The notes below the pieces were generated by a model, which saw only the letters and a list, made by a program, of their open reading frames with translations, had not been told where the DNA came from and did not search any database. Below, piece after piece: positions 2,322-64,000 of a stretch of DNA of 64,000 nucleotides. The stretch spans positions 8,432,001-8,496,000 of the forward strand of contig NC_090404.1 in assembly GCF_036365525.1 (NCBI RefSeq), in the 5' to 3' direction. Numbering within the stretch: the first letter of the stretch is position 1; each line of letters begins with the position of its first letter. The DNA comes from Heterodontus francisci. Its lineage: Eukaryota. The position numbers were made by a program, and so were the translations under genes.

Positions 2322-2607
2322 GATTAGATTAGATTGGAGATACAGCACTGAAACAGGCCCTTCGGCCCACCGAGTCTGTGCCGAACATCAACCACCCATT
2401 TATACTAATCCTACACTAATCCCCTATTCCTGCCAAACATCCCCACCTGTCCCTATATTTCCCTACCACCTACCTATACTAGTGACAATTTATAATGGCC
2501 AATTTACCTATCAACCTGCAAGTCTTTTGGCTTGTGGGAGGAAACCGGAGCACCCGGAGAAAACCCACGCAAACTGCGGTGCTAACCACTGCGCCACTGT
2601 GCCGCCC
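2322..2607 (-). mobile_element. tRNA-derived shark SINE (HE1-like)
   Basis: tRNA-like head GGGCGGCACAGTGGCGCAGTGGTTAGC on the minus strand and a CR1-like tail with (tctaa)n. Other copies at ~8630, 22509, 45005, 46430 and 59765. Confidence 0.8.
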
Positions 2608-6961: not shown

Positions 6962-7025
6962 CGGCTGTGACAGTCACCACCGTCCCGGATCCATACGCAG
7001 AATCACCCTTCAACTCATTATATAC
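6962..7025 (-). other. NAR-TCR J segment with 23-RSS
   Basis: Encodes ...NELKGDSAYGSGTVVTVTA (IgNAR-like YGxGTVVTV) with a G|GTAAC donor at 6961. Heptamer CACAGTG 7026-7032, 23-bp spacer, nonamer ACAAGAAGT 7056-7064. Confidence 0.93.
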
Positions 7026-7430
7026 CACAGTGACACCGCTACCAGTCACCCTGGTACAAGAAGTACCGACACCTCAATCTACCAGCCGCACATCACCAGA
7101 TAGTTGGCGATGCTCAATTATTCCAGGGGTTTTAAATCATTTAACAATATTCCCTTGTTTCACAATCCATATCTGTTCAAACTGCTCTTTTTGAGACTCT
7201 GAGCTCTTAGTGAAATGGCCCAGGAACAGGGGCCGGATTTGGGCGCTTGATATAAAAGGAGAATAATGTCAATGAATAATGTCAAAGAAAGCGAACTGAA
7301 AGGAGGAAATTACAGTGAAATTAAACCAGATTACATCGATAATAATATCAATCCTACAATTCAGGATCTGGACCTGGGGTATTTATATTTTGATTTTACA
7401 GAGGTATTTGCTCAGATCTCAAACACTGTG

Positions 7431-7446
7431 AATATCCCAGTAAATT
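7431..7446 (-). other. NAR-TCR D segment (AATTTACTGGGATATT) flanked by two 12-RSS
   Basis: GGTATTTGC (7403-7411), 12 bp, CACTGTG (7424-7430) on one side. CACAATG (7447-7453), 12 bp, ACAAAATCC (7466-7474) on the other. Confidence 0.93.
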
Positions 7447-7836
7447 CACAATGTTTCAAGTCAGCACAAAATCCCCCGGTACCGGGTGTGATGTGGGGAC
7501 ATTAGATAACAGCGGAGACTGCGGTTCCCGGTTCCAGCTGACAGATCAGGATCCCATCTGGTGTTAGGAATTTGGAACTGGGACCAGACATTCCCAATTT
7601 CCATTCACTGACACAAATCCCGGGAAAGACATCACCATCCGCATACACTCGGTATTTATAAAACTCAAGATGTTCACGGAAACAATCCAATAACATTATA
7701 AACGAGACTGTGGAGCAGATGGTGCGAGGCCGAACTGCAGGGTTGAACGGCAGATTAACTCCGTTTTTTGGTTTGTTTCTGTGAAAATCTGCAGTGAGAG
7801 CTTTTGTACCGCGGGAAGACGAGACCCATCACTGTG

Positions 7837-8302
7837 TTGTACCTGTACTCAGCTTGACAGTAATAGGTGGCGGTGTCTTCAACTTTCACATCCCGAATTT
7901 CCAGAGAAAATGTCTTTTCTGCCTTATTCAACGACACAACAAATCGGCCTCCGTCAGAGATCCGCTCCCGCTTTGTCCCGGTTTGGGTTTGTCTGAAGAA
8001 ATGTCCACTTCGGAATTCATAATCCCAGAACCCACCTTCATAGTAAACACAGTTGATGGTGAGAGACTGACACTCCTTCCTGGTCACCGCTGCCGGGGTC
8101 TGTGTCACTGACTGACTGAAAGAGCCTGGAAATTAAACAGAGAGAGTTTAATGAACCACACAACGAGGCTAAAACCCCAGACAGTGTCTATAATTCGGAT
8201 GGACTCGGGCAGCTTTATATTAAATCCACACAATGTCGGTTTGTTTGATCGGTACTCACGGGGTAAACAGACACACAGGGTGAAAACAAGGAGGATTCCC
8301 AT
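7837..8302 (-). CDS. NAR-TCR V gene (leader 8302-8260, V exon 8125-7837), apparently functional
   Basis: Leader MGILLVFTLCVCLP with GTGAGT donor. V exon SQSVTQTPAAVTRKECQSLTINCVY...ERISDGGRFVVSLNKAEKTFSLEIRDVKVEDTATYYC is IgNAR-like, lacks CDR2 and has an extra FR1 Cys. RSS: CACAGTG 7830-7836, 22-bp spacer, ACAAAAGCT 7799-7807. Confidence 0.93.
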
Positions 8303-42235: not shown

Positions 42236-42687
42236 ATGGAGCCGATGTTGTACCGTCTTCTCCTTATGTTGTGGCTAGTGTTGGGTAGGTATGGCCATGC
42301 TTTTTATCTGTTTGCAGTATTGTGATGTTAATAGACTTTTCTACTCAGTATTGAATTCAACCTTCAGTTATCTTTTATTTCAGGGGTGATTCAGGCAGAT
42401 TCGGTGTCACAACCTCAGTCTGCACTGTATATCACTGAAGGAGACACTATGAAAATAGACTGTAGCTACATAACAAGCTTGGGTAACCCCGATCTATACT
42501 GGTACCGACAGCACATGAACCTGGCTCCGCAATTTATTTTGTATCGGGACAGTAACAGGAGAAGGGATGCAGATTTTGCCAAGGGAAAATTCGAAGCCGG
42601 CCAGACGAACGCAGAAAAGAAGTTTCCTTTAACGATCACTGGAGCAGAAATCCAGGACACCGCTGTGTATTTCTGTGCACTGAGCAG
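42236..42687 (+). CDS. TCR Valpha/delta gene (leader 42236-42284, V exon 42384-42687), apparently functional
   Basis: MEPMLYRLLLMLWLVL|GVIQADSVSQP...IDCSY...LYWYRQH...DTAVYFCALS. Perfect RSS: CACAGTG 42688-42694, 23 bp, ACAAAAACC 42718-42726. Confidence 0.95.
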
Positions 42688-44509
42688 CACAGTGCCTTAA
42701 AACTCATCTGTCCCTGTACAAAAACCTCAGTGAAATAGAACTGCCACAGGCAGTATCTGCAGTTCAGGGGAACCCGCCGCTGTCAGTAAGTGTCAGTGGT
42801 AACTCTGTCACTTCTCTCGTCCAATTTGTCTAAATTATAACATTGTGGGTTCAAATCCACTCCAGAGGCTGGAGTGCATATTGCAGTCCAACACTTCTGT
42901 TGTCCGTATTGATCGAGTGCAACAGTGTCGCAAGTGCCATCTTTCAGATGCGCTATTAAATGGAGGTTCCATCTGAACGAACCCACCGCAATATTGTGTA
43001 AAAGAGCAGGAAAGCTCTCCTCCACATTTATCGCTTAATCGACATCACTAAAACAGATTATTGCATTGGCCTTTATGGGATCTTTTTGTGCTCATATTGG
43101 CTGCCGTCTTTCCTGCATTCCAGTAGTGACTGCGCCTTAAAATTGTTTCACTGGGACGTGTGGGACAGGCTGAACGGACCCGAGCGTCCTTTGCTATATG
43201 TGCTCGTTAGTATATTCAATATTACAACTTGTGGGCCTGTCTCTTCACATCATTTTGAGTTTCTCACTCAAGACTCGCTCAGATGACGTCAATTACCTGA
43301 CTGACCTCAGGACCGGCCATTGGGCACTGCGTCTTTCTAGGAAGCAAATGGGGGGCTCTTTGCACCAATCAGCGAACAGTACTTGAGCACAGTCTCTTAA
43401 AAAAAAGCTTTTCAAATAGCGTACAGCATAGAACTGGATTCAGAGCAGCTCGTCTTCCATTTTAAGATTATTTGACTCATTAATCTGCTCAGCCTCACTC
43501 CTCTACCTTCTCTTTACCCACATCCGACAAAACAGGGCTTTTGATGACCTAGGTTTTTTTTGAGCGAAGTAAAGCGAAAACCGCAGGATGTCAGTTACGT
43601 TGATTAAATAAAAATCCACGATGTGAGTTTTCCGAGATCCTCTTGCGGGTTTTAACCCTGATCAACGGTTTCCATCAATTGCTTATGAAGTCAAGGCAGC
43701 ATTAACCTCCATATTATTAGCTTTCTGTCACCTTTTTGTGTTCGGTGTGTGTAAGAGTGGGATAACAGGAAAAAGAGAAAGGATAGCAATCCTGGAAATA
43801 TTTCAAAAAAGCTTAGTCACCCCGCAGCGTACTTAAACCCAATCTTGCTGATATTTTCAGTGGATCATCAGGAACTGTTACCCGTCATATTGGTTCTAAA
43901 AGTCCCCCCATTGTGGAATGAGCGCTTCATAGACATTTTCACATCATTGACACACGCCATGTCAGAACCGGAATCAATGACGTAAATAGAGGTGGACAAA
44001 TACTCTGATTCATAAATTCTACAAAACACAAATAAGGAGACAAATCAGGAATCTAACGGAATGCGGCAGGCAAAGGTATCACGTTACTTTGGAATTCGTT
44101 TCAATTTTATTTTCCAAGCTACCTGATGCCACTTCTTAAACGTTACTGAAGTCGAAATATTTCAGTGAAAAGGAAGTGACGCCCAAACGCGAACAGAAAT
44201 CCTTGCCGTTAAAGACCACAATCAAACTCAGTTTGTAAATGCCCCGGCGCAGGAAAGAGCAAGAGATTTCGGCAGAAAAATAACTGCGGGAAATTCAAAA
44301 CTTTCTTTCCGAGAAAGAGAAAACAAAATATGTGTCTGTGTGTTTTGGCCGATTTTGTGTTTCTGAATGTCCGTCTATACAGTTCTGGAAATGGAACCGA
44401 GGAAGTCGGATTAATTGCAAAACCAAGTTGTTTTGGTAGATTAATAAAGCGAATATTTAATGTTTCCGTTCTATTTCTATCTCTCTTTGTCTCTTCTCTA
44501 TTTCCATCT

Positions 44510-45320: not shown

Positions 45321-47999
45321 TGGAAGAGCAATTCACTCAGTTCCATTCCCTCGCCTTCTCCCCATAACCCTGCACGTTCTTCCTTTTCATACAACTGTCA
45401 ATTCCCTTTTGAAAGTTTCAGTTGAACCTGCCTCCACCACACTCTCAGGCAGTGCATTCCACACCTCAACCACTCGCTGTTGAAAATTTGCTTCCTCGTG
45501 TCACTTTTACTTCTCTTACCAATTGCCTTCAATCTGAGCCCTCTCGTTCTCGATCCTTTCACGAGTGGGAACAGTTTGTCTCTATCTATTCTGTTCAGGC
45601 TCCTCATGATTTTGCATACCTCTATCAAATCTATAATATTCCATCAAATATTCTCAGAGTAGATTCTATTTGGGTCAGATACAAAATAAAGCTCGCTCTA
45701 CATTGTGCCAATGTTCCCAAAGCAGCTGCAGCATGGATTATATACATAAGGACGTGTTACAACGAGCACTTACATGTCAACTGCTGCAGCTGTTAAATAA
45801 AACTCAGAGCTTCCTTTAATCTACCCCACAAAATACTCCAATGTCAGGAACATCATCGCGGCTGCACGGAATAGATCTGTTATCCTGTTCCATTAAATAC
45901 TCCAATATCAGGGAGAATACGATTACATACAACCTAAAGGTACTCTTTCCTATTCAGCAATGCCTTATTGCAGCTCCAGAATGTTTTTGAACCAATAACA
46001 GCATATTGTCAATTGATAAAAGTTTGAACCGTGAGAGTCCAAGTATTGACCTGCCGAACATTCAGGTAGTGGTTCAGTGGATAAAATAATGGTCATAAAT
46101 GGAAACCGAAATGAGTAAACGTGGTAACGTCTCGACTGAAGCCAGGGGGAATGTCATCCTTAAAGCTGCTTCATTTTTATATGAGCCAAAATGGTTCACG
46201 AATATTCTTAATTTATATCAGGTTTATTGCTAGAATCTTTAAAAGGAAGAGGGAATGCAGAGGTGTTTTGGACTTCCAATTCTCATTATGTCACTTGAAG
46301 AGTGTTTCCAGTCAAAGTCTATTTCCAAATCCTCGGATACCACGGTCAGATGATATCTAAGTGCGATGTGCGTGCAATCATTTACAAGTACCTCACACAA
46401 TATTAGCTCTCTGGGCCGTGCTTATCTAGCCAAAAGACTTGCAGGTTCATAGGTAAATTGGCCATTATAAATTGTCACTAGTATAGGTAGGTGGTAGGGA
46501 AATATAGGGACAGGTGGGGATGTTTGGTAGGAATATGGGATTAGTGTAGGATTAGTATAAATGGGTGGTTGATGTTCGGCACAGACTCGATGGGCCGAAG
46601 GGCCTGTTTCAGTGCTGTATCTCTAATCTAATCTAATCTAAAATATACATTACAAACAATTTTAACTTAAGTGCCTCACACGCATAGTCATGAGCACTTT
46701 GAAGGCGAGTGTCTTGACCAAGCGCAGTCTGATGAAGTACAGGGACAAACCCATTTCACTGAAACCTGCCCCACGTGAAATAGAACAGTGAGAACCAGAA
46801 AGCAAACTTTACCAAATTTCGCATTTACTACGTATCAACGCAAAGCGTTATTTCAAAAGACTTAGCAGAATAGCCTACATTTCAATGCATGTGCCTCTGT
46901 TTCTGTATGTCTTTGTGAGTGTGTTTCTGCTACCTGTGTATGTGTCAGTGTGATGTGGGTGCCGGTTATTTCTGCGTGTGCATCTCTGTGTGTCTGTGAG
47001 GATATGTGCATCATTTATGTGTGTCTGTTTGTGTTTGCATGTGTGTGTTTTCTGCCTAAATGCATTTGTTCTCTTATATATATATGGAATATATTATAAA
47101 TCCATATATTCTGCTTGAGTTTACAGATAGATAATTCGCAAAACATGTTCCAATATGTTCTTGGCGAGAGTCGGCGAAGAGGAAATGAGGCTGTTTAAAC
47201 TCTTTAGTATCCTCAGATTATTACAACCCAGAAGGCACAATAAATAAAAACAGATCGCTGAAAGAAAGAGATTTCATTTGTAAACAGTGGCACTACGACG
47301 CAGGTGCAGATATTTTCTGGGTTATTTATTTGTGGCGACATTTTCAAAAGTTTCTAAAATTACGTGTTTATTTGGTTTAGAAGCAAATTCCTCCCACTAT
47401 CGCTAACATACAACAATCAGAGTAATCGCCTCTCAGTCTCTATGAAAGAACATTATGAAGAAGTTAATGGATGTTTCACCCTGCTGAATATTTCATCTGT
47501 AATTTTAACTGTGCTACTTTAGAAAGCATCTTTCACAGTCTCATGATGTCCCAAAGCGCATTACATCCATACGGAAAATGTAATCCATTAGAAATTGCAC
47601 TGTAGGGTAACACAGCAGACAATAATGTGCATAACAGGATCCAGCAAACAGCAATGGGATATTTAACAGATATTCTGATTGTAAGTAGGGTTCAGGGCTC
47701 AATATTGGCCCACGACGCCAGGGAGAATTTCCAAGTTCTTTCAAAGAATGCCATTGGATATTTTGTGTCCATCTGGAAGGGCAGACAAGGCCTCGGTTTA
47801 ACCTCTCGACAGGAAAATGAACCCATGACAGTGCAGTTTTTCCTGAAATCTCAGCCTAGATTTTATGCTGAAACCTTTGGATTTGGGTTGGGATAACGTT
47901 CTTTTTGGAATATAGTGCAAAAGGAAATTCTACAACTGCAGCATGTAGCGAGCACACAGATTCTCCAGTTTGTAGCTCAACAGGTTAAAGAGCTGTTTT

Positions 48000-48151
48000 T
48001 ACCCGTGAGGCGAAATGTTCACTCCGAAAATTTATGAATCTTATATCGAAATCAACACCTGAACGCAGTCACAGTTTGTCGCATCGTCTCAGTTTGTGAA
48101 TCGAAGGCTCTGTTCCCAGGATCTTCTTTGGACAGTTCCACATCTCACTTC
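48000..48151 (-). pseudogene. Decayed TCR alpha/delta-type connecting-peptide/TM exon
   Basis: tttag|GA AGT: SEMWNCPKKILGTEPSIHKL, frameshift, TMRQTVTAFR...TFRL. Spacing matches KVNMMSLTVLGLR, and the T of TFRL lies 14 codons after the R, as in TCR alpha/delta TMs. Confidence 0.5.
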
Positions 48152-49057
48152 CTAAACGGAAATGCATAGAACATTCCTGTGATTCAAACTCCCTTAGAAA
48201 TCAATGAAAACATCAACATTCACAAGGGCTGCTGCGTCACCTGGATGTTGTACAATGTTTTTGTCTCTGGTTCCGGGATCCAGTTGATAATCTAGGTTGA
48301 CACATAGGTGCAGAATGATGCCAGGAGTTATCTCGTCCCTGCTGTTACCTTGTGGTAAGATTAAACTAGCCTCTTCAGGTCGAGGGTAAGAGATATCTCG
48401 AGGTGTCGGGAATTGCCCTGCTTTGCTGACCAACATTGACACCTCACTCAATGCAATGAAGACATGTTGACGGATTATGCAAGTAACTCACTATTTGTGG
48501 ATCCTGATGTGTGAAATACTGACTGCAAAAATTGGCTTCAAAACAACAGTGACTTCATTTGAAAAGTTAACACGCTGTGTAAACATTTCATCATTCCCTT
48601 TATAGCCCTTTGGTTGTTAGGTCAGATACTAAAATGATTAGCGCCTTTCATGCCGACCCAAAGTGCTTCATAAACATTTTTGTACAGTCACCAATGATCA
48701 GATCATCTGCGTTGTAATGATTTGGAGAAAGGTATTCCCCAGGGCACTCGGGAGAACTCCCAGGAGTTCTTTGGACTAGTGGTGGCATCATTTCTGTGTA
48801 ACTGAGAGAACAGCTGGAGCGTCGGTTTAATGTCTCGTCCGACACGGCCGACAACGGAGCACTCTTTCAATGATGTACTGAGATCTTCAGCCTGGGTTAT
48901 GTGCTCAAATCACTGGAGTGGGCCTCGAATTTACAAACATCTGGCCGACAGGCAACCAAGCCACTCACTGAGCCAGGATGGTACCTGCTCGCTGTTTTTA
49001 GAACACTTCGATGGATCATGGGATCAATAAATTGTTGAAACGCAGCTTTTCCATAAA

Positions 49058-49349
49058 CTGTTTGCAGGACTATCTCGTCTGGCACCGTGGCGTGTTCAAC
49101 TTTGCAATCGATCACACCCCCATGTCTCCATCGATATATCGGTAGAAAAACAGCCGGTGTGTATCTCCCATGTACGGCGGGTTGAATTCAACTTCCTGAC
49201 TGCGGTGGACGAAGTCTTCATGGATATGTTAATTTCTGGTGGATAGAAATCCGTCACCAATCAAACTGCGGCTGCGTCTCCTCCCACACTCAGAGCTCCA
49301 TTCTGAAGGCGGAAGAGGTGCGTTTTTTGCCTGGAAAGTTTGGTGAGCT
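49058..49349 (-). pseudogene. Decayed TCR Cdelta-like constant exon
   Basis: cacag| phase-1 acceptor; ...GGDAAAV*LVTDFYPPEINISM...TGCFST, frameshift, VIDCKVEH...VLQT. First Cys is now TGA (49261-49263). No C-strand Trp, as in TCR Calpha/Cdelta. Confidence 0.72.
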
Positions 49350-50599
49350 CTGTGATTTGAATGAAATAATGTCAATATCTAGGACAATATTAAAATAGAA
49401 TGAAATGATCCTTCTAATTCTAATGCTCAACAAAATCGCTCCTTCATTTCCTCATCCCATTTCAGTGTCGCAGTTGATGTGAATGAATTGTTCTCGTTCA
49501 GTTTTACTCTGATCATTCTGGAATTTATTTTCAATAAGGAACAGAATATGTTTAGTAATGAATTTGCAGGCATTGCGTGAATTTCGAGAGTAAAATATTA
49601 AAGAGGTCTTATGTTACGAAGTCGTGGAGGTTCTGTTACTGCGCAGAAGCTGCCTGGGTGTTTCTTTAATTAATAAAAATGTCTTTTACAGTTACGATTG
49701 AGGAAATTGGCTAAGCTCAAGAGCCCTGCTTTCGGAGACACGCGATGTTACAGCCCATCGGTAGTTAATGATATCTAACCCCGACTAGACCTTGAACTAT
49801 TTAAAGTAGTCCAGTCCTAAACCCATCATGTGAAATACACCCTGAGAATAGCCGTTTAAATTCCATAGGCGTGCTCAGAAACATGCAGTGTTTACAAGGG
49901 TGTGGGTCGAGAACAGGACAAATTTTGAATTAATGAAGTGTCATTTTATTTACAGAAATTCATATATCTTTCTGAAAATTTCCATCTCCTATGACTTTAA
50001 TATTATAAAGTTCCATGTTCATTTAATTAAAAGGTAATATTTCACAAGGTACCAGGCAGAAAAAGATTAACAATTAGCATGAACTAATTTTACCATAATG
50101 TAGTAAATATTAGCAGGAGATTAACTTGGAATATAATACCAGCATTAATTTATGAAACAAAATGAGCTCCCACAATGGCGTTACGTTCTGCCCAGCATTC
50201 CCAGTGTGGAGGGAGATTTATCTTAAATGAGCTGTGACTGTTTTATTCCGTAAAGTTCAAACAACATAAATTTGTATCTAACAAATCAGATGCAAGAGCT
50301 CGAGCCAGGTATCTAAAAATAAACCATGTTATTGCTCCAAAGAAACAACTGATCGAGTTTACTCTTCTTTCTAAATAAAATCTCTCTAATTCTTATTGAA
50401 TTGATAATGAATAAATATTTTGAGCAGCCGATCATTATTGAATGCAATTGGCTTAATCTTGAGAGTGCTTTCCGAATAAACAATTTCAGGAAGTGACCAT
50501 AACGCTCCAGACAGCAACGCCTGTTCAGATCTGAACGTCAGCTGGAAGATATTTTGACGATTCAATTAGACGGTGTGAAGATTTGCTCTCTATCTCACC

Positions 50600-51320
50600 A
50601 GTGCTGTACCTTCCCGGCAGATGTTGAAACTGAAAGTGCAGAGGCAGTCTTACTCCATATCTAACCCGAGTTGGCATGTGTTTGACGGTAAAGTGGAAAG
50701 GAAGCTTTAATTTGTATCTGATCTGTGCTGCACCTGTCCTGGGAGTGTTTGATGGGACCGTGGAGAGGGAGCTTTACTCTGTTTTTGACACGTTTTTGTT
50801 TTTCATTTTTAGGAGGGAGAGGGGATCACGTCGGGCGCTGTGCAATGAATTCAGAACTGAATCACAGTGTCGAGGGAGCTTTACTCGATATCTAACCCTT
50901 GAAAGTGAGGGACTGCTTGAACGCCAGGTTATTCACTACCTCCATGTCGCATTTATTGGTGGCCTATAACAGGTAGTGGCAATGAGAATAGAGGGGTGCT
51001 TTACTCCGTATCTAACCCCATGATTTTTCTTTTTTTCCTAACCCCGTGCTGTACCTGTCCTGGGAGTGTTTGATGGGGGACAGCGTAGAAGGAGCTTTAC
51101 CCTGTATCGAACCCCGTGCTGTACCTGTTCTGGGAGTGTTTGATGGGGACAGTGTCGAGGGAGCTTTACTCTGAATCTAACCCCGTGCTGTACCTGTCCT
51201 GGGAGTGTTTGATGGGACAGTGTGGAGGGAGCTTTACTCTGTATCTACCCCATGCTGTATTTGCCCTGGGAGTGTGTGATGGGACAGTTTAGAGGCAGAT
51301 TTATTCTGTATCTAGCCATT
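50600..51320 (+). repeat. ~64-bp minisatellite
   Basis: ccccgtgctgtacctgtcctgggagtgtttgatgggacagtgtrgagggagctttactctgtatctaa units. Confidence 0.85.
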
Positions 51321-53814
51321 TTTTTTCATTTTTCTTTTTTTCTTTATCAGCCAGGGTTCCTGCTCCTGATCTCTATCTTACCCTTGCTAAATCTGATCTG
51401 AGAGTGATTGGCCAGGCAGCGTTCAAGGAGCATTTATCTGCATCTAAACAATAAACTGCGAGTGCTCGAGCCAGTTGTATAAGAATAAATCTCTCCAAAG
51501 CCCAGATCTAACAACGCAAACTCATTTATATTAAAGTTCTTTCTAATAAAGTGTGTGCGCGGGTTGTAATGATTTATTAATTTTCAAACGTTTCGAGTAA
51601 CAGATAATTATGGAATGAGAGTGACCTGATCTTTAGCTTAATTTCAGACTAAATAGTTTCAGGGAGTTATTGATTTAGTGACGGGTTTGACCAACTCCAG
51701 AAAGCAGCGTCAGTTCTGATCTGGTTGGAGGCTGCAGATACTTCGAAAATCCAAATAATGTCGAACTCGCGCTCCAAATAGCTTATGTTTGAAACCGTTA
51801 TTTTGTTCAATTATTTCTTTTAAAAAAGGAAGCAGGTAGGTACCAAGTCGGGTGAGATGCAGTTATTGCACTGGGTCACAAGGCTTATCGTCGCTGAATT
51901 GCACTTCAGCGAAAACATTAAAGAGATACCATCAGACTACAATGAGTCATTATTTACAAAAAGCTTCAAGCTTCTGCAACAGTATCCAATTGACTCATTT
52001 ACGTCAAGTTCCTTTCCTATTTCATTTATATCAAGTCACAAAAATAGAGCTGATTAGGAGGCTCAATATTATGAAGTGTTTCCTTCTATTAAGTCGGGAA
52101 GAACTAATTCTGTTGCATCGTATGGGATCATAAAATCTTACAGCATGGAAGGAAGGCATTCGACCCCTCGTTCCTGTCCGTGTTTCGAAATAGCGGTCCA
52201 ATTTAGTCCCACACCTCAACATTTTGCTCATCATCCTGCAAATTAACCTTCATTGTGAAAAAGTCCTCATTTCCACTCAAGTCATTTGGCCAATGATTTT
52301 AACCCTTTAACCTTTGGTTACCGACGGAGGAATCAGTTTCTCCCGAATTGCTCAATCAAACCCTGTCATAATTTTAATTGGTCTCCCAATAATCTTCACT
52401 GCTCTAAGGAAAACAATCCCAGCTTCTCCGATATCTCTACGTATCTGACCCCTCTCATCCCTGGTTGTGATCCGGCTAAACATTCATTGTCCCTTCTTCA
52501 AGGCCTTTCCAACCTTCCAAAAGTGCGGTTTCCAAAAATCCACTCAACAATAGTTCATCTGAAACCTGTACAGTGATTTCTAAAGGTTCCGCATGACTTC
52601 CTTGCTTTTTGTATTCACTGACTGAATTTACAAAGCCTAGTATCCCAGATAACTGCATTATCGACTTATCCTGCCACCTTCCAAGATTTCCCAATATGCA
52701 GCGCCAGGTCCCTCTGCTTTTATAACGACTTCAAAATTGTACTATTTAGATTCTACTGCCTCTCCATGTTGAAGCTCCTGAAGTGCAGCGCTTCACATTG
52801 ATAGAATCATAGACTAATACAGACAGAATGAGGTGATTCGTCCAATTATTCCGGTTAACTTGCACTTGCCATGTGTTTGCCCATTTCATCAGTCTGTTTA
52901 TGTCCTCCTTGTGGGAAACGGATTATTAACTGACTGGGAGGGAGGAGGAAACTCATGAGAGACCCGTTCAGTACAATAGGATACAGCACAAATCATAATG
53001 CATTTAAGAGCATGTCTCTTCCTCCAATTCTGAGAAGGAAAGAGATAGACTCGAGACATTCCCGATTCGTCTAAAGGTGGAATCTTAGAAACTAGGATAA
53101 CGAAAGTTCCCTATTGACTTCTGTGCACTAAATCATTCAGTGCATATTTTCAAGTTTATATATTGCAAATGTCCTTTATTTATGGGGACAAAGAAGATTT
53201 AGATTCCAACGCTGGAATTTTAAAGAGTTTATAAAGGAATTTGGGAAGCATAATTTCCCCGATTGGTGAGTTGGTAAGGAGACGGCACTGATTGAAAATC
53301 TGTACCAAAGGAATGAGGGAGTGGGAAATCTGTTTTCCTACACAGTGGGTTGTTAGCACTTGGAATGTCCTATCAGAGAATAAAAAACAATCAGCAATCA
53401 GAATCCATAATAGCGCGAGAAAATGGAACATTTGAAAAGAAGATTTGAAATTGAAAGTAGAACGAGATTGGTGGAGAAATCTTTCACAGGCTTGATGAGC
53501 CAATTTGCCCTCTTCTGTGCTATAAATTTGTATTATTGTATAATTCTGGATCATGCTTTGTAAATATGATTGGATTTGTTTTAAGCATAAGACAACTGGT
53601 AGATCTAGCGGATGTAGTTATGTGACTAGGAGAACTAAACCCGCTGCAATTCAGATAAGTGTATCACCTGAAAATAACAACTTGCAATTTCATAGCCACT
53701 TTGCCGTAGTAAACACTCAGAAGAACATTCCCTGCAGTCAATTTTCAAGTTGTTTGGTTAGATATACGCTAGGGTTACAGAATCTAAATTATGAAATTGG
53801 TCATCCTTTCCCAA

Positions 53815-54185
53815 CGACACCGTCTCCACCGGCCCCCACCCCACCTCCACCACCCACCCACAGCACCCCCCACCCCTCCCCCCCACCCCACCCCAGTCAA
53901 CCCGCACACTCTGCGGCCAGCTCGCCTGTGAAGAACTCAACACCAACAGCTCCGGAGCCTACGGCTGTTTGGCGATGGACTACACCCCCGAAATCACCAC
54001 CATTTCCTGGAAGAAAAATAAAGAACCGATCAGTACTAGATTCAAGACTTACCCGTCAGTGCCGACCAAGAAGGGAACCTACACCCGGAGCTGCCAGTTA
54101 ACCATCACCGAGTCAGAGGTGGGAAGCAGCAAAATCTACTGCGAGGTTCGACGCGGAGAGTCGCTCTGGATCAATAAACTGCCAG
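53815..54185 (+). pseudogene. IGHM: IgM heavy chain Cmu1 exon, disabled
   Basis: (A)TPSPP[C-rich ~75-bp frameshifting insert]TLCG..CEE...YGCLAMDY...SWKK...[39 protein letters not shown]. Acceptor reads AA instead of AG (53813-53814); donor G|GTTAGT is intact. Confidence 0.88.
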
Positions 54186-54917
54186 GTTAGTGTCGTATAC
54201 AAGGGGTAAAGTGAAAAACAGATCAGTTATATTCAACCTGTACAGAACTTTGCTTCGGTCAGCCTGAGAGTACTACACATAATCCTGGTCTCCATTTCAC
54301 ACTTAGTGCGCTGTGTTTAGTTTTGGTTTTCATACTGCAAGAATGATACAGAAGCACTGGAGAAGGTACAAAAAGATTTACAAGGGCAATACCAGAACTG
54401 AACGATTATAAATGTCAAAAAGTAATTAAAAGGCTGTTGCTCTATTCTTCAGGAAAGAGAAGGTTGCGGGTTGACCAAATACTGGTTTTTAACATTATGA
54501 ATGCGTTTAATAGGTTATGTGGAGAGAAAATATTTCTGCAAGAGAGGAAGCCCAACTCTAGGGGTTATAAGCATAATAAATTCACGAATAAATGCAATGA
54601 AGAATGCAGGAGAAGTTTCTTCAGCCAGCGTGTTTAGAATGTGGAACTTGCGACCACATAGAGCGGTTGAGACAAATGACATAGATGCCCTTTAAGAGGA
54701 ATCGAGATGAGTATATGAGGGAGAAAGGAAAGGATATTGATAGCGGGAGACAAAGCATAGTGGGAAGAGTTCATGTGGAGCAATAACTTCGACATTGATC
54801 TATTGGATCAAATTATTTGTTTCTATGTTTTAAATTCTATGTAATAATATTTGAAACAACGGTTGACAGTTATTTTGGATTGCAACAAAAATACATATAT
54901 ATTGTATTTTCTTGAAG

Positions 54918-55229
54918 ATCGTGTGTTACATCATCCAATTGTTATCCTCACCCAGAGTTCCAGTGAAGAAATCACAAGCAGCAGATTTGCAACTGTCTTG
55001 TGTTCAATCATCGATTTCCATCCAGAGTCAATAACCGTGAGTTGGTTGAAGGATGGACAACCCATGGATTCGGGCTTCATCACCTTTCCCGCCTGTGAAG
55101 CGAACGCGAACTTCTCGACGACCAGTCGGCTGACAGTCCCCGCTGGGGAATGGTTCACCAACACGGTCTATACCTGCCAGGTCTATCATCAAGTGGTCAC
55201 CCAAAGCCGAAACATCACCGGATCTCCGG
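54918..55229 (+). CDS. IGHM: IgM Cmu2 exon, open reading frame with intact splice sites
   Basis: [54 protein letters not shown]...YTCQVYHQ...NITGSP; gaag| acceptor and G|GTAAGA donor; 312 nt. Confidence 0.92.
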
Positions 55230-55914
55230 GTAAGAGACACAAACCGAGGAAGCTCCGGATAATTCTGAGTAAAGTCAGGACTTTGATTGAAATTAGTGTA
55301 AAGCACAGAATTATTTCGAACTTTTAATCGTGTAGCTTGTGTTTCGTTCCAAAGTAAAGGAGAAGAAAGACTTTCCTTTTTTCAGCGCGTCTAGACTCCT
55401 CTCAGAGATTCCATCCACAAGGAAGAAGGTGAGCGGTGAGATTGAAGCAATAAGTCAGAGGTTGTGGCTATTTCCTGTGTTTGTGAAAGGGACAATTCGT
55501 CCTATTAAATTATGTAATGGATTACTCTGATTCCACTAACGGAACCCTCTGGAACCATAGGTAATGCATTTAAGGGGAAGCTAGATAAGTAGATGAGGTA
55601 GAAAGGAATAGAAGGAGATGAAGCAAGGTGGGATGAAATTCGTGTGCAGCATAAACATCAGCACAGATTAGTTGGGCCGAATGCCCTGTTCCTGTGCTGT
55701 AAACTCCATGTAATGTTCCATTCTAATCCTTTAAGTCCTCAGTGAAAAGGATTGCATCCGCCTCTGCTCCGGGCTGGAAAACAGGACGGGTCCCAGAGGC
55801 GTAAAGGAAAACCTTTAAAATCCAGCGCAAAGCCCATTCCTCTCACATCGAACCAGTGCTCTCATTGCACATGGTTATTGGTAGGCTGTGAAAATCTGAA
55901 CAATAGTAACATTT

Positions 55915-56960
55915 CACACACAAACGCAAAAACACATATAAAACACTTGCATATATATGGAGACACAAACACATAAACACATACATTAACAAAAACACAC
56001 ATATATAAACACATTAAGAAGCACAAACACGCACAACATTAACTGATTTACACACAAACGCACGCATTAGTCCGCTCACACAGGCACACAAGTAACCACG
56101 GGTGTGAACGCATACATAAATACAGTGAAAAACATCCACTAAAACAGTCATACAGACATAAGCACAACACACATCAATCCACTGACCCTCATACTCACAC
56201 ACACACACACACACACACACGCACCCCGACAAACACGCACCCTGACACATATAAATGCAACACACTAATATCCTCAAATACACACATGGACACGCAGACA
56301 CGTTCGTAAACACAAACATGAACGGAAACAGACACACTGAAAAACGGACACATGAACACATCCACACAAACGTAAACACACAGTGACATATATCAACAAA
56401 CTCACTCTCTCTCACACACACACAAACAGAATGTTAAATATCTCCATTAACACGATCATATACACTCATTAACACTATCAACACTCATTCTCATGTTACC
56501 TCATAAACAAATGGCCACACAAAGACAAATATCAACGAACGACACAACAGGCATGGACGCCCAAACGCACTCATAAACAAACACACTCACACACACATGG
56601 ACCCACACATACACAAACATACACGTTAACACACACATAAAAGGACACGCAAGCACACACATAAACAAACACACGGACAGACACACATACAAACACATTA
56701 ACATCTTGGCATTTCTTCGTGAATGAAGATTTTAGGAAGGTTTCGCTCGCAGTTGCACGCCCGCTGGTGGCAAGTCAGGCCTAGCGTCGACCGCAACACA
56801 TAAACACTCAAGCACACACGTTAACACACACACCGAAAAAGGACTCATAGAGACACATTAACACACTCAAGGTCACACAAACACACACATTATCACACTC
56901 GCGCACATAAATGGATTCACAAACACAGAAAAATGCAAAACAGATAGAAATGCACACACT
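55915..56960. repeat. CA-rich low-complexity / decayed microsatellite tract
   Basis: (CA)n-like sequence over ~1 kb. Confidence 0.9.
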
Positions 56961-57585
56961 AAAACACGTATACTAAATGTCACATGATACACCTATGTGA
57001 ATTCAAATGTACTTTATGATTGAGTGAAGTCTCCAATAATTGCCCTGAATAAGTAATCCGTGACACGATAATATTTCACTGGTCTTTATGTGGGTCCTAA
57101 AACACACTGAAAGAATGTCCTCAGTTTAATACTGATGCAAGTTAAAGCTGTTCATAGGATTTCCACCACAGGATTTGAACTCACAGCCGACTCTCAATCA
57201 GAATCCTTGACGGTCTCCAACTAAGTTGCTATCGAAACATAACGCATGCGTGATCTATATACAATCAGGTATCTCACCTTCATATTCACGAACGTTAGAT
57301 TGTCCGAGATTAACCCAAAATAAATTGGCGTCTGACAATGAAGGAAAAAAGAAATAAAGATTTTCCAGCACGAAATGTATGAGAATCTTAAAGGAAGAAC
57401 GGTTGTGGTATCAGGAACAGGAACATTGCTGAGAGTCATTCATTTAAAGTCAGATATACGTTGAAGATTAAATTACAGAACAAAATGGTATCTCAGAGTA
57501 ATGATAAGAAAACAGAATATAATAATTATATGACATCCTGGATTAATAAACGACCTGAATATATTTCCCCCTCGACATCCTGTAG

Positions 57586-57713
57586 ATTCCTCCGGCCACA
57601 TCTGGATTGAAGACTATGAAGAAGAAAGCGGCAACATCAGGGCAGCCACGTCCACATACATCATCCTGTTCCTCCTGAGCATTTTCTACAGTGTTACCCT
57701 CACCCTGGTGAAG
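57586..57713 (+). CDS. IGHM: IgM transmembrane exon TM1, intact
   Basis: tgtag|AT: DSSGHIWIEDYEEESGNIRAATSTYIILFLLSIFYSVTLTLVK|GTGAGA; acidic spacer and the conserved YS motif. Confidence 0.92.
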
Positions 57714-58245
57714 GTGAGAAGATTCAATCCACCCGCAGTCACAAGAGCCTGGGGTCCATCTGACACATTCACACTGGGGAGCAGTGAGCCCGGCAATCAT
57801 TCAAAGAGCACGAGGCCTATCTGATAAAGCAGGGAGGAAGGATCTTGTGAATGAAACCCAGAGTCTGGTTTCTACTGGACTGATAGACTCTCTCTTTCCC
57901 ATTTTGTTTATAGAAGACGGAACGATGAACGGAAAGACTGTATTTGAGGGAGAGGGGTTGAGGGATAACACATTATATGCATGGACATTTGGAAGGTTCA
58001 GCTCACTAACATTGCCAGAAACAGTTTGTGTGCAAGCCGGACAAAGTTAAATTCTGATGGATAACAATTTATGTTTGTATGGGGGGGGGGTCTTGGTGTC
58101 CTTTTTGAACGAGCAAAGCGCATGTAGTTGATTATTTCATTCTGATGGTGTTCATTTAACCCCAGTTCAGCCATGTTGGACTACAGTAGAAGTGTATCCC
58201 TCCCCACCCCCCACCCCCCCTCTCTCTCTTTCCTTCTCCCTTTAG

Positions 58246-58311
58246 GTGCTGCACAGATCCTCCTGCTCTCTTCCAACCGCCCTGCTCTCGGGCAAGAATG
58301 AGTTCCTTTGA
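58246..58311 (+). CDS. Candidate TM2 exon with an extended tail (VLHRSSCSLPTALLSGKNEFL*)
   Basis: Strong polypyrimidine tract then tttag|GTG, ~530 bp after the TM1 donor. Confidence 0.45.
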   Translation: MLHRSSCSLPTALLSGKNEFL

Positions 58312-58539
58312 AGGATCCCGAGTCCAAATGGACTACAGAGACTGAAGACACAAATAGTCTGCACTAGAGTAATCACTTCCAACCCTTCGCCATTCTCAGC
58401 AGCACTAATTAAGACTGACTCTGTCTTCTGTTTCCTTGACAGCATTTCTCTATGTTCTGAGACATTTTCTCCGATACGATCAGAACGTCACCCCAGGCAT
58501 CCTCTCTCCCACTGCATTCCCTCCTCAAATACTGAAGCG

Positions 58540-59540
58540 GCCATGTAGAAATGCAGCAAGACCTGGACAATATGCAGGCTTGTGCTGATAAGTGGCAAGT
58601 AACATTCGCACGCCACACAAGTGCCAGGCAACGACCATCTCCAACAAGAGAGAATCTAACCATCTCCCCTTGAAAATACGTAACGGTATCACGATCATTG
58701 TATCCCCCACGATCAACATCCTAGGGGCTACCATTGACTAGAAACTGAACTGGAGTAGCCATATAAATACCGTGGCTACAAGAGCAGGTCAGAGGCTAGG
58801 ATTCCTGAGGCGAGTAACTCACCTCCTGACTCCCCAAAGTCTGTCCACCATCTACAAGGCACAAGTCAGGAGTGTGATGGAATACTCTACACTTGCCTGG
58901 ATGGGTGCAGCTCCAACAACACGTATATCTGACTAAGATATCATCCCTCCTTACTGCAGTAATTGACTCCTTGATCAATAGTGCAATGCCACCTCCTCTT
59001 CTACACCTACAGTGCTGTTAGGAAGGGAGTTCCAGGATTTTGACCCAGCGACAGCGAAGGAACGGCGATATAGTTCCAAGTCAGGATGGTGTGTGACTTG
59101 GAGGGGAACTTGCAGGTGGTGGTGTTCCCATGTATTTGCTGCCCTTGTCCTTCTAGTTGGCAGATGTCGCGGGTTTTGAAGGTGCTGTCTAAGGTGACTT
59201 GGTGCATTGCTGTGGTGCATCTTGTAGATGGTACACAGTGCTGCCACTGTGCGTCAGTGGTGGAGGGACTGAATGTTTGTGGATGGGGTGCCAATCAAGC
59301 GGGCTGTTTTGTCCTGGATGGTTTGGAAATCTGTCAATCTCTGCTTTAAACATACTCAATGACTGAGCTTCCACAGCCCTCCGGGGTAGAGAATTGCAAA
59401 GATTCACAACCCTCTGTGTAATGACATTTCTCCTCATCTCTGCCCCAAGTGATTTCCCCCTTATTTTGAAATTGTGTCCCCTGGTTCTAGACTCCTCAAC
59501 CAGGTGAAATATCTTACCTGCATCTACCCTGTCTATCTAT
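58540..59540. mobile_element. Mixed LINE fragments in both orientations
   Basis: RT C-terminal relics (DKWQVTF, TIYKAQVRSVMEYS, TQRVVNL). Confidence 0.65.
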
Positions 59541-59549
59541 AACGATACC

Positions 59550-62470
59550 CCAGGGTCCTACAAGACAAGGGGCGGCACTGGACCTAATCTTCGGGAATGA
59601 AGCCGGACAAGTGGTGGAAGTCTCAGTGGGGGGGGGGGGGGGGCATTTCGGGGATAGTGACCATAACTCTGTAAGATTTAAGGTAGTTATGGAAAAGGAC
59701 ATAGAGGGACCGGAAATAAAGGTACTGAGTTGGGGGAAGGCAGATTTCAATATGAGTCATCGAGAGAGATGCAGCACTGAAACAGGCCCTTTGGCCGACC
59801 GAGTCTGTGCTGACCATCAACCACCCATTTATACTAATCCTACATTAATCCTATATTCCCTACCACATATCACCTTCCCTCAATTCTCCTACCACCTACC
59901 TACACTAGGGGCAATTTACAATGGCCAATTTAGCTATCAACCTGCAAGTCTTTGGCTGTGGGCGGAAACAAGAGCACCCGACGGAAACCCACGCAGTCAC
60001 AGGGAGAATTTGAAAACTCCACACAGGCAGTACCCAGAACCGAACGTGGGTCGCTAAAGCAGTGATGCTAGCCACTGCGCCACTGTGCCAAAATGATTCA
60101 ACAAGATCTGGTCAAAGTGGACTGGGATCAGCTACTTAGAGGAAAGTCGCAATCAGATCAGTGGGAGTCATTCAAAAATGAAATAGTGAGAGTTCAGGGC
60201 CATCATGCTCGTGTAAACGTGAAAGGTAGGACTAACAAGCCCAGGGAACCTGGATGTCAAGCGATAGAGAGGATTGGATAACGAATAAAAAAGGAGACTT
60301 ATGGCAGATTCACAGGGCTGAAAACAATGGAGGCCCTAGAGGAGTATAGAAAGTGCAGGCGGTACTTTAATAAGTAATTAGGAGAGCGAAGGGGGGCATG
60401 AAAAACACTGCAGGCAAGATAAAGGAAAATCCCAAGGCCTTTCATAAGTATATCAAGGGCAAGAGGATCAGCAGGGAATGACGAGGGCCCATTAGGGACC
60501 AAAGTGGCAATCTCTGTGTGGAGCTGGAGGACGTAGGTGAGGTTTTAAATTATTACTTTTCATCTGTGTGCACTATGGAGAAGGATGATATAGCTGTAGA
60601 GATCAAGGAGGGGGATTGTGATAGACTTGAATAAATTAGCATTGAAAGAGAGGAGGTATAGCGGTTTTAGCGGTCTTAAAAGTGGATAAATCCCCAACGC
60701 CCAGATGAGATGTATCCCAAACAAAAACAAGAACTGCTGGAATCACTCAGCAGGTCTGGCAGCATCTGTGGAAAGAGAAGCAGAGTTTACGTTTCGGGTC
60801 ACTGACCCGAAACGTTAACTCTGCTTCTCTTTCCACAGATGCTGCCAGACCTGCTGAGTGATTCCAGCATTTCTTGTTTTTGTTTCAGATTTCCAGCATC
60901 CGCAGTATTTTGCTTTTATTTGAGATGTATCCCAGGCTGTTGTGTGAGGCAAAGAAGGAGATTGCAGGGGCTCTGACACAAATTTTCAAATCCTCTCTGG
61001 CCACAGGAGAAGTGCCAGAGGACTGGAGGACAGCGAATGTGGTACCATTATTCAAGAAAGGTAGCAGGGATAACCAGGTAATTACAGGCCGGTTCGTCTA
61101 ACATCAGTGGTAGGGAAACTAATGGAAAAAATTCTGAGGGACAGGATTAATATCCACTTGGAGAGGCAGGGATTAATCAAGGATGGTCAGCGTGGCTTTG
61201 TCAAGGGGAGATCATGTCCAACAAATTTGATCGAATCTTTCGAGGAGGTGACTAGGTGTGTAGATGAGGGTAAAGCTATTGAAGTAGTCTACGTGGACTT
61301 TAGTAAGGCTTTTGATAAGAGCCCGCATGGTAGATTGGTCAGGAAGGTAACAGCCCATGGGATCCAGGCCAATTTGGCAAATTGGATCCAAAATGGGCTT
61401 TGTGGCAGGAGGCAGAGGGCGATTGTCCTGGGTTATTCTTGCGAGTGGAAGCCTGCGACCAGTGGTATACGCAGGGATCGGTGCTGGGACCCTTGCTCTT
61501 TTGTAGTGTACATTAATGATTTAGAAGCGAATATAGGAGGTATGATCAATGTGTTCGCAGATGACACGGAAATTTTTGGTGTTGTAAATAGTGAGGAGGA
61601 AAGCCTTAGATTACAGTATGATGTAGATGGGCTGGGAAAATGAGCAGAGCAGTGGCAAATGGAATTTAATCCTGAGAAGTGTGAGGTGATGCATTTTGAG
61701 AGGACTAACAAGGCAAGGGAATATACAATGGATGGTGGGGCCACTGGAAGTACAGAAGGTCAACGGGACCTTGGTGTACTTGTCCATAGATCACTGAAGG
61801 GAGAACCACAGGTAGATAAGATGGTTAGGAAGGCATATGGGATACTTGCCTTTATTAGCCGGGGCATAGAATATAAGCACAGGGAAGTTATGACGGAGCT
61901 ATATAAAACGCTAGTTCGGTCACAGTTGAAGTACTGTGTATATTTCTGGGCACCGCACTAGAGGATGGATATGATTGCACTGGAGAGGGTGCAGAGGAGA
62001 TTCACCAGGATGTTGCCTGGGCTGGAGCATTTCAGCTACGAAGGGAGACTGGATAGGCGAGGGTTGTGTTCCTTAGAGCAGAGAAGGCTGAGGGGGTACC
62101 TGATTGACATATACAAAATTATAAGGGGCATTGATAGGGTAGACAGGAAGAAACTGTGCCCCTTAACGGAGGTGTCAATAACCTGGAGGCATAGATTTAA
62201 TGGAAGGGATAGGAGGCTTAAGAGGGGATTTGAGGAAATAAAATTCACCCAGAGGGTGGTTGGAATCTGGAACGCACTGCCTGCCTGAAGAGTTTTTAGA
62301 GGCAGGAACCCTCACAACATTTAAGAAGTAATTAGATGAACACTTGAAACGCCATAACATAGAAGGCTACGGGCCAAATGCAGGAAAACGGGATTAGAAT
62401 AGAAAAATGCTTGATGGCCGGCATGAACACGATGGGCGGAAGGGCCTGTTACTGTGCTGTATAACTCAAT
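59550..62470 (+). mobile_element. Decayed CR1 LINE with a nested SINE (59765-60089, -) and a hairpin Penelope-derived element (60720-60920)
   Basis: GDSDHNSV and RT motifs; hairpin TSD TGAGATGTATCCCA at 60706-60719 and 60921-60934. Confidence 0.88.
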
Positions 62471-62509
62471 GACTTTCCCTGCTCCATGCCCTCTGATACC
62501 ATCTCTCAC

Positions 62510-64000
62510 AATTCGGTTAGGTTTACCTTAGCGATGGGTAGGGACAGGTATATACCGCAGGGCAAAAATTATAGCTGGGGGAAAGGAAATTATGATGCGA
62601 TTAGGCAAGATTTAGGATGGGGAAGGAAACTGCAGGGGATGGGAACAATCGAAATGTGGAGCTTATTCAAGGAGCAGCTACTGCATGTCCTTGATAAGTA
62701 TATACCTGTCAGGCAGGGAGGAAGTTGCCGAGCGAGGGAGCCGTGGTTTACTAAAGAAGTTGAAGCGCTTGTCAAGAGGAAGAAGAAGGCTTATGTTAGG
62801 ATGAGACGTGAAGGCTCAGTTAGGACGCTTGAGAATTACAAGCTAGCCAGGCAGGATCTAAAGGGAGAGCTCAGAAGAGCAAGGAGAGGACACGAGAAGT
62901 CATTGGCGGATCGGATCAGGGAAAACCCTAAGGCTTTCTATAGGTATATCAGGAATAAAAGAATGACTAGAGTTAGATTAGGGCCAATCAAGGATAGTAG
63001 TGGGAAGTTGTGCGTGGAATCAGAGGAGATAGGGGAAGCATTAAATGAATATTTTGCGTCAGTATTTACAGTAGAGAAAGAAAATGTTGTCGAGGAGAAT
63101 ACTGAGATACAGACTACTAGGCTAGATGGGATTGAGGTTCACAAGGAGGAGGTGTTAGCAATTTTGGAAAGTGTGAAAATAGATAAGTCCCCTGGGCCAG
63201 ATGGGATTTATCCTAGGATTCTCTGGGAAGCTAGGGAAGAGATTGCAGAGCCTTTGTCCTTGATCTTTATGTCGTCATTGTCGACAGGAATAGTGCCGGA
63301 AGACTGGAGGATAGCAAATGTTGTCCCCTTGTTCAAGAAGGGGAGTAGAGACAGCCCTGGCAATTATAGACCTGTGAGCCTTACTTCGGTTGTTGGTAAA
63401 ATGTTGGAAAAGGATATAAGAGACAGGATTTATAATCATCTTGAAAAGAATAAGTTCATCAGCGATAGTCAGCACGGTTTTGTGACGGGTAGGTCGTGCC
63501 TCACAAACCTTAATGAGTTTTTCGCGAAGGTGACCAAACAGGTGGATGAGGGTAAAGCAGTGGATGTGGTGTATATGGATTTCAGTAAGGTGTTTGATAA
63601 GCTTCCCCACGGTAGGCTATTGCAGAAAATATGGAAGTATGGGGTGGAAGGTGATTTAGAGCTTTGGATCAGAAATTGGCTAGCTGAAAGAAGACAGAGG
63701 GTGGTGGTTGATGGCAAATGTTCATCCTGGAGTTTAGTTACTAGTGGTGTACCGCAAGGATCTGTTTTGGGGCCACTGCTGTTTGTCATTTTTATAAATG
63801 ACCTGGAAGAGGGTGTAGAAGGATGGGTTAGTAAATTTGCGGATGACACGAAGGTCGGTGGAGTTGTGGATAGTGCCGAAGGATGTTGTAGGGTACAGAG
63901 GGACATAGATAGGCTGCAGAGCTGGGCTGAGAGATGGCAAATGGAGTTTAATGCGGAAAAGTGTGAGGTGATTCACTTTGGAAGGAGTAACAGGAATGCA
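62510..64000 (+). mobile_element. Young CR1 LINE (same subfamily as 17886 and 25080), runs off the window
   Basis: Near-identical to the reverse complement of 25850-27310. Confidence 0.92.

What the first reader, a model, noticed from the sequence alone, without database searches (positions are those of the whole stretch)
48000..57713. Back-to-back TCR-C and Ig-mu constant genes: possible fossil of IgH/TCRdelta locus mixing
The Cdelta-like gene (-) and the Cmu gene (+) diverge from a shared ~4.5-kb interval (49350-53815) in which neither has a recognisable J. NAR-TCR cassettes, themselves Ig-like V on TCRdelta, lie in the same window. Inference: this may mark the insertion point of an IgH cluster into TCRdelta, the type of event proposed for NAR-TCR, VHdelta and TCRmu origins.
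Basis: inference. Interest (0 to 1): 0.7.

Follow-up and report, generated by a model that had tools for sequence, protein, structure and literature searches.

The report
Orphan TCR-delta relative abutting shark IgM
A broken, old relative of the shark T-cell-receptor delta constant gene lies back-to-back with a broken IgM gene; the join is likely a deletion scar, not an insertion site, but the gene's sawshark counterpart is predicted to be intact with its own variable domain, so it may be an unrecognised invariant T-cell-receptor-like chain.

Summary
The layout is real. A TCR-type constant gene (minus strand; C1 49349-49046, hinge 48151-48069, TM 46765-46667) abuts a V-D-J-less, CH3/CH4-deleted IgM constant gene (plus strand), with no J between them. 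Short-read contigs bridge the join, which occurs in three 98-99% identical copies.

It is not an IgH insertion point in TCRdelta. The canonical Calpha and two Cdelta genes lie about 5 Mb away. IgM clusters and TCR V segments interleave over 10 Mb here, as already published for other sharks. The join has no RSS or target-site duplication. The only paralogous site also carries IgM 3' flank, so there is no empty site, and the join is likely a deletion scar. Both genes are broken.

The new point is the TCR-type gene. It is delta-lineage but only 28-29% identical to Cdelta, and 61% identical to a sawshark RefSeq protein labelled 'Ig lambda-like'. That protein has leader, V-J, C1, hinge Cys, TCR-type TM (Arg/Lys) and a cytoplasmic tail. 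Its V has no horn shark counterpart above about 35%. Whether that V-J is one germline exon could not be tested here.

The parts
46667..46765 (-). TM exon of the orphan delta-lineage TCR constant gene (here 'C-X'); frame open, Arg and Lys at i/i+5, no stop before the donor position
   Evidence: 75% over 32 aa to sawshark P0156 TM; splice sites and comparison with Calpha/Cdelta TM exons
48069..48151 (-). Hinge (connecting-peptide) exon of C-X, Cys kept, 1-bp deletion, dead donor
   Evidence: Aligned to the 11.12-Mb copy, which matches P0156 243-271 at 48%
49046..49349 (-). C1-set exon of C-X; stop codon at first Cys, frameshifts, dead donor
   Evidence: 272/302 nt identical to the open-frame copy at C34:11.118 Mb; Pfam C1-set on that copy
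49350..49417 (-). Last 68 bp of the C-X intron upstream of C1
   Evidence: Homology to the 11.118-Mb copy ends at 49417
49418..49423 (.). Junction between C-X intron and IgM intron; a 6-bp tandem repeat, no RSS, no TSD
   Evidence: bridged by contigs
49424..53814 (+). IgM J-CH1 intron, starting about 1.8-2.5 kb 3' of where JH lies in other clusters; contains a dispersed tandem repeat at about 50600-51340
   Evidence: Homology starts at 49424 in 5 of 7 IgM clusters tested, 64-73% identity; JH positions
53815..54185 (+). IgM CH1, acceptor lost, C-rich insertion near the 5' end
54918..55229 (+). IgM CH2, open frame
55394..55428 (+). 3' remnant of IgM CH3; rest of CH3 and CH4 deleted
57586..57713 (+). 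IgM TM exon
57714..64000 (+). IgM 3' flank interrupted by repeats; IgM-derived DNA continues past the window (second TM copy about +65050) to at least about +65609
42398..42726 (+). TCR alpha/delta V with perfect 23-RSS, part of the same duplicated block
1177..8130 (-). NAR-TCR cassette (NAR V, D 7431-7446, J ending at 7025, supporting V with 23-RSS at 1177); context only

Best explanation
This is a broken IgM constant gene joined back-to-back, likely by deletion, to a broken copy of an old delta-lineage TCR constant gene (C-X) that is not the locus's Cdelta, and the joined block was likely copied twice more by recent tandem duplication. Shown: the exon anatomy and lesions; the breakpoint at 49417/49424; three 98-99% copies; a fourth, older copy at C34:11.10-11.13 Mb that keeps 1.56 kb more DNA next to C-X and only the IgM 3' flank. 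Inferred: C-X and an IgM cluster were neighbours in the IgM/TCR-V interleaved array. Separate deletions then removed the 5' halves of both genes in this lineage and the whole Cmu in the 11.12-Mb lineage. Neither gene can likely make a chain now. Predicted for the living form (sawshark P0156): a two-domain V-J/C1 chain with hinge Cys and TM Arg/Lys that would pair by disulfide with a beta- or gamma-type chain and assemble with CD3 as a low-diversity receptor, plus a tail of about 25 residues.
For: Breakpoint. Colinearity of window 41151-75437 with C34:11,098,973-11,133,970. IgM 3' flank pieces at 11,120,059-11,120,657 in the same orientation; two of these pieces hit only 4 IgM flank loci and the 3 triplicate copies among 120 loci plus the window. 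The 350 bp next to the older copy's breakpoint are unique in the genome search and do not match IgM introns. No RSS or TSD. Triplication at 99.1% and 98.4% over 11.5 kb. C1 dN/dS between window and older copy is 0.96 (7 syn, 21 nonsyn, 98 codons). Canonical Calpha, Cdelta1 and Cdelta2 with their J arrays at 3.18-3.46 Mb. C-X is 60.8% identical to sawshark and 28-29% to Cdelta. C-X groups with shark and mustelid Cdelta at 98/91 once 4 long rows are dropped. 55 of 150 scored CH2 hits (71% or more) and 141 of 150 V hits interleave on C34 3.5-13.9 Mb.
Against: The original contact between C-X and IgM is erased in both lineages, so how they first became neighbours (deletion, inversion or insertion) is not observed. 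With all 28 rows the free tree left C-X unplaced beside an MHC-like domain; the delta-constrained tree had higher likelihood, and C-X+Calpha was not formally rejected (p-AU 0.058). The dN/dS count is small: an off-frame control gave 0.39. The sawshark evidence is two predicted isoforms from one species. The shark TM Asn of Calpha/Cdelta is replaced in C-X.
Confidence: 0.68

Rival explanations
1. An IgM cluster or C fragment was inserted, or inverted, into the V-J/C intron of C-X, between it and the co-oriented NAR-TCR cassette, and killed it; later deletions erased the original ends.
For: In both the window-type and the 11.12-Mb unit, IgM DNA lies on the opposite strand between C-X and an upstream NAR-TCR cassette. 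An inversion between two co-oriented genes with breaks in both J-C introns would give this back-to-back pattern (inference).
Against: No empty site, TSD or RSS. No reciprocal product: no C-X-type V-J was found in the genome. NAR V exons are dense here (10 in 324 kb, 9 on the minus strand), so co-orientation says little.
Confidence: 0.2
2. C-X is just an old, dead duplicate of Cdelta that once served a self-contained NAR-TCR or V-D-J cluster, and the sawshark V-J is a gene-model splice of an ordinary V and J.
For: Delta-lineage placement. The horn shark locus already has a duplicated D-J-Cdelta unit. Unchecked notes e1-9844171 and e1-8851147 read it this way.
Against: No D or J upstream of any of the 4 copies; the one 12-RSS-like match lies in IgM flank and has no J behind it. 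The sawshark V has at most 31% identity to 59 horn shark V domains, while sturgeon Valpha and mustelid Vdelta controls reach 49% and 44%. It groups with a genomically single-exon V-J gene on C46 (90/88, long branch). The TM exon reads through into a tail, unlike Calpha and both Cdelta genes.
Confidence: 0.3
3. The juxtaposition is a misassembly of a repetitive region.
For: The region is a 98-99% identical triplication, so copy number could be wrong.
Against: Short-read contigs bridge the join in X1 and X2. The three copies differ by their own indels and substitutions.
Confidence: 0.02

Closest known systems
Elasmobranch antigen-receptor complex (AgRC), Flajnik et al. 2025, PMC12227049 (parts 1-2 of 8 of the text, passages, and all of table S1 read)
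   Same: IgM clusters, including 'IgM (missing V)', 'IgM pseudo?' and 'IgM C only' models, interleaved with TCR alpha/delta V and NAR-TCR segments.
   Different: Table S1 names no extra TCR-type constant gene or V-J/C1/TCR-TM gene among the IgM clusters, and horn shark is not mentioned.
Shark TCRdelta constant gene (Cdelta1 and Cdelta2 of this genome)
   Same: C1, hinge with Cys, TM exon with Arg/Lys and a donor at the equivalent place; same clade in the trimmed tree.
   Different: 28-29% C1 identity against 55% between the two Cdelta genes; no D/J array; about 5 Mb away; TM exon lacks the stop.
Marsupial TCRmu (germline-joined V on a Cdelta-derived C), PMC3457774 (passages)
   Same: Delta-derived C outside the D-J-Cdelta unit, with a possibly pre-assembled V.
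   Different: TCRmu V genes are VH clan III related. The sawshark V does not group with VH, and no upstream rearranging cassette is shown for the sawshark gene.
Non-rearranging V-J/C1 genes: UrIg, UrIg2 (PMC12227049) and PRARP (named in PMC10751288, passage; the PRARP paper itself was not held)
   Same: Single V-J unit with split-leader-like start followed by C1, annotated automatically as Ig light chain-like.
   Different: UrIg and UrIg2 have 3 to 11 Ig-type C domains. C-X has one C1 and a charged TCR-type TM. PRARP could not be compared directly.
Pre-TCR alpha (PTCRA), PMC9614664 and PMC12529555 (passages)
   Same: Invariant TCR-alpha-like surrogate with hinge, TM and cytoplasmic tail; a possible functional analogue.
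   Different: PTCRA is reported for amniotes only and has no V domain (recalled). No PF15028 hit at E<=1.

Membership tests
Canonical TCRdelta constant gene | C1 domain of the delta lineage | tested here: met
   98/91 clade with 3 Cdelta rows after dropping 4 long rows; unresolved in the full 28-row tree, constrained tree better
Canonical TCRdelta constant gene | Hinge Cys and TM Arg/Lys at i/i+5 (motif recalled; checked against this genome's Calpha/Cdelta) | tested here: met
Canonical TCRdelta constant gene | Upstream D and 12-RSS J segments | tested here: not met
   None in 324 kb and 140 kb around the 4 copies; present at 3.31-3.34 and 3.44-3.46 Mb
Canonical TCRdelta constant gene | Stop codon in the TM exon (no tail) | tested here: not met
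   Calpha, Cdelta1 and Cdelta2 stop there; C-X copies and P0156 read through
Functional IgM cluster | CH1, CH2 and TM of IgM type | tested here: met
   81-96% DNA identity to 7 other clusters
Functional IgM cluster | V-D-D-J upstream and CH3-CH4 | tested here: not met
Insertion (RAG- or transposon-type) event | RSS-like ends or target-site duplication | tested here: not met
   No shared repeat of 5 bp or more between the two block ends tested; best RSS has 4 mismatches and lies over 1.5 kb from the join
Insertion (RAG- or transposon-type) event | Empty site in a paralogue or relative | tested here: not met
   The only paralogue keeps IgM 3' flank; other shark genomes were not searchable
TCRmu-like (germline-joined V on delta-type C) | V and J in one germline exon | not testable with these tools
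   Only the sawshark protein model is available
TCRmu-like (germline-joined V on delta-type C) | V related to Ig VH | tested here: not met
   Does not join the VH clade
PTCRA | Pfam PF15028 match | tested here: not met
   accession taken
UrIg/UrIg2 | Three or more C1 domains after the V-J | tested here: not met
   One V-set and one C1-set in P0156
PRARP / VJC1 genes | Sequence orthology and synteny | not tested
   Papers not held; no named sequence available

The most novel reading that the evidence does not exclude
Sharks have an additional, non-rearranging TCR chain of the delta lineage (leader, single-exon V-J, C1, hinge Cys, charged TM, cytoplasmic tail) encoded inside the IgH/TCR complex. 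It is intact in sawshark, dead in horn shark, and its V is allied to non-rearranging V-J genes. It would be a TCR-side counterpart of UrIg2, or a shark parallel to pre-TCR alpha or marsupial TCRmu.
Probability: 0.35. Interest if true: 0.8.

Novelty: new variant of a known kind. Interest (0 to 1): 0.52.

Why it matters
The IgM/TCR mixing itself is published, and this join is debris. The orphan gene matters more. An unsplit V-J exon on a TCR-type constant region inside the antigen-receptor complex would bear on which gene RAG first split and on whether sharks have an invariant or surrogate TCR chain. One look at the sawshark genome and thymus RNA would test it.

Tried and rejected
Homologue search with the C1 domain among longer proteins found nothing; the HMMER library search found the sawshark protein. 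A search with P0156 returned only its own cluster, 1 of 3114 candidates, so no third species was found; the index is word-limited. Genome searches for the sawshark V-J gave only 26-35% hits, and tblastn of 120 loci found no leader or tail. A 12-RSS-like match upstream of C-X was first read as a J signal and then rejected: no J follows and it lies in IgM flank. My first reading of the 11.12-Mb unit as an empty site was rejected. The dN/dS used the wrong frame; one search corrects it. Single-sequence AlphaFold of P0156 was uninformative (pLDDT 41.5), so no fold search was run. No RNA holder was listed for the stretch, and RNA-guess runs X5 and X6 were laid without a usable answer; this is no evidence on expression. 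RAD runs X9-X11 did not cover the join. No complex prediction was sent. Literature: 8 searches listed no description of this gene, but Ohta 2019, Ott 2021, Deiss 2019 and Fu 2019 were not held, and the supplementary PDF of PMC12227049 was not read; any of these may bear on novelty.
Full report
Setting. The window is G000:C34:8,432,001-8,496,000 of a 6.0-Gb genome. Two proteins from a contig of the same length are labelled Heterodontus francisci, so I call it horn shark. On C34, 55 of 150 scored hits to the window's CH2 are IgM-like (71% identity or more) and lie between 3.60 and 13.80 Mb. 141 of 150 hits to a window TCR V lie between 3.51 and 13.89 Mb on both strands; they were not typed one by one. 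IgM and TCR V genes are therefore interleaved over 10 Mb. PMC12227049 reports this linkage in four other elasmobranchs (text parts 1-2), and its table S1 lists V-less, C-only and pseudo IgM models among TCR V and NAR-TCR entries.

Observation. The minus-strand gene has a C1 exon (49349-49046), a hinge exon (48151-48069) and a TM exon (46765-46667). The C1 has a stop at its first Cys and frameshifts, the hinge has a 1-bp deletion, and both donors are dead. The plus-strand gene is IgM: CH1 with a lost acceptor and a C-rich insert, an open CH2, a 35-bp CH3 remnant, no CH4, and a TM exon. No J motif or good RSS lies between them. A NAR-TCR cassette is present at 1177-8130. Contigs from two short-read runs of one sample bridge the join. 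Runs from other samples did not cover it.

Copies. The TCR-type gene occurs four times: three copies in a tandem triplication at 8.48, 8.56 and 8.65 Mb (99.1% and 98.4% identical to the window over 11.5 kb) and an older copy at 11.12 Mb (C1 exon 90%, introns 82-84%). The older copy has an open C1 frame but a dead donor, a stop in the hinge and a 15-bp TM deletion that removes the Lys. dN/dS between the two types is 0.96 on 98 codons; the count is small, and one off-frame control gave 0.39.

The join. Homology to the older copy stops at 49417. Homology to the IgM J-C intron starts at 49424 in 5 of 7 clusters tested (49442 and 49794 in the other two), about 1.8-2.5 kb 3' of JH. IgM-derived DNA runs to at least +65609, past the window end. 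The older unit is colinear with window 41151-75437 and at first looked like an empty site. It is not: it carries IgM post-TM flank at 11,120,059-11,120,657 in the same orientation, and two of these pieces hit only IgM flanks and the triplicate copies among all fetched DNA. It also keeps 1.56 kb beyond the window's breakpoint, the first 350 bp unique in the genome search. The simplest reading (inference) is a common ancestor with C-X next to an IgM gene, and two different deletions. There is no TSD or RSS at the join. How C-X and IgM first became neighbours cannot be seen; insertion or inversion remains a rival.

What the TCR-type gene is. The canonical genes lie about 5 Mb away: Calpha at 3.184 Mb with a J array, Cdelta1 at 3.304 Mb with a J array, and an inverted D-J-Cdelta2 at 3.460 Mb. 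C-X is 28-29% identical to either Cdelta, which are 55% identical to each other. Among the best 150 of 158 HMMER hits in 1.84 billion representatives, one stands out at 61% identity; nearly all others are 23-35%. [quoted passage not shown] Isoform P0156 reads leader, V, J-like FGxG strand, C1, hinge Cys, a TM 75% identical to the window's, and a tail. In the 28-row C1 tree, C-X and sawshark pair at 98/95 but their place is open. Holding them with Cdelta improves the likelihood. With four long rows removed they join shark and mustelid Cdelta at 98/91, and grouping with Calpha is disfavoured but not rejected (p-AU 0.058). So 'Cdelta-like' is fair, but it is an old paralogue and not the locus's Cdelta. 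Its TM exon has the donor at the equivalent place to Calpha/Cdelta but lacks their stop, which fits the sawshark tail.

The sawshark V. It has no horn shark counterpart: the best genome hits are 26-35%, and the best of 59 V domains in fetched DNA is 31%, against 49% and 44% for sturgeon and mustelid controls. It groups at 90/88, on a long branch, with a C46 gene whose V and J are contiguous in the genome. This suggests, but does not show, a non-rearranging V-J exon; a gene model could also splice a V to a J. No D or J lies upstream of any horn shark copy.

Mechanism. In horn shark both genes are likely inert, and their opposite orientation gives no chimeric transcript. For the intact form I predict, from TCR architecture (established knowledge, recalled), disulfide pairing with a beta- or gamma-type chain through the hinge Cys and CD3 assembly through the TM Arg/Lys, giving a low-diversity receptor. 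This was not tested, and the TM Asn found in Calpha/Cdelta is replaced.

Comparison and verdict. The events modelled for VHdelta and TCRmu move V genes into TCR loci or move whole V-D-J-Cdelta units out (PMC3457774, passages). This site joins two decapitated C regions, so it is not a fossil of that event. The gene fails membership tests for canonical Cdelta, PTCRA and UrIg/UrIg2. It resembles TCRmu's joined-V arrangement only if the V-J proves to be one exon. Eight literature searches listed no description of it, but four key papers were not held. Earlier scan notes on the third copy called the IgM ordinary and the TCR gene a dead extra Cdelta; they are unchecked, and the lines shown do not mention the sawshark orthologue. 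Interest 0.52: ordinary join, unusual gene.

Noticed in passing
G000:C34:3,443,000-3,462,000 (L062-L064): A second, inverted D-J-Cdelta unit with 5 J segments; its C1 is 55% identical to Cdelta1.
   Followed up: partly
L100:5085-5880 (G000:C46:14.778 Mb): A gene with V and J contiguous in one exon, a C1 exon about 100 bp later and a possible TM; 6 similar hits at 14.78-15.11 Mb. It may be a PRARP-like family (name from a paper passage; not tested).
   Followed up: partly
window 1055-1177 and G000:C34:8,499,038-8,499,416: Tandem 60-63-bp repeats each carrying a 23-RSS behind NAR-TCR supporting V segments, up to 6 in a row.
   Followed up: no
window 57586-57713 and about +65050 beyond the window end: The IgM TM exon is duplicated; the cluster at C34:6.043 Mb shares this and is 86% identical over the 3' part, while its J-C intron is only about 67% identical.
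   Followed up: partly
G000:C34:8,684,883-8,711,179: A TCR V is amplified in 2.56-kb tandem units.
   Followed up: no
window 30922-31200 (-): A second NAR V with 22-RSS; no D or J signal was found behind it.
   Followed up: partly
L076 (G000:C34:13,881,746-13,884,992): An IgM JH lies within 1 kb of TCR V exons, with no VH signal found nearby.
   Followed up: no
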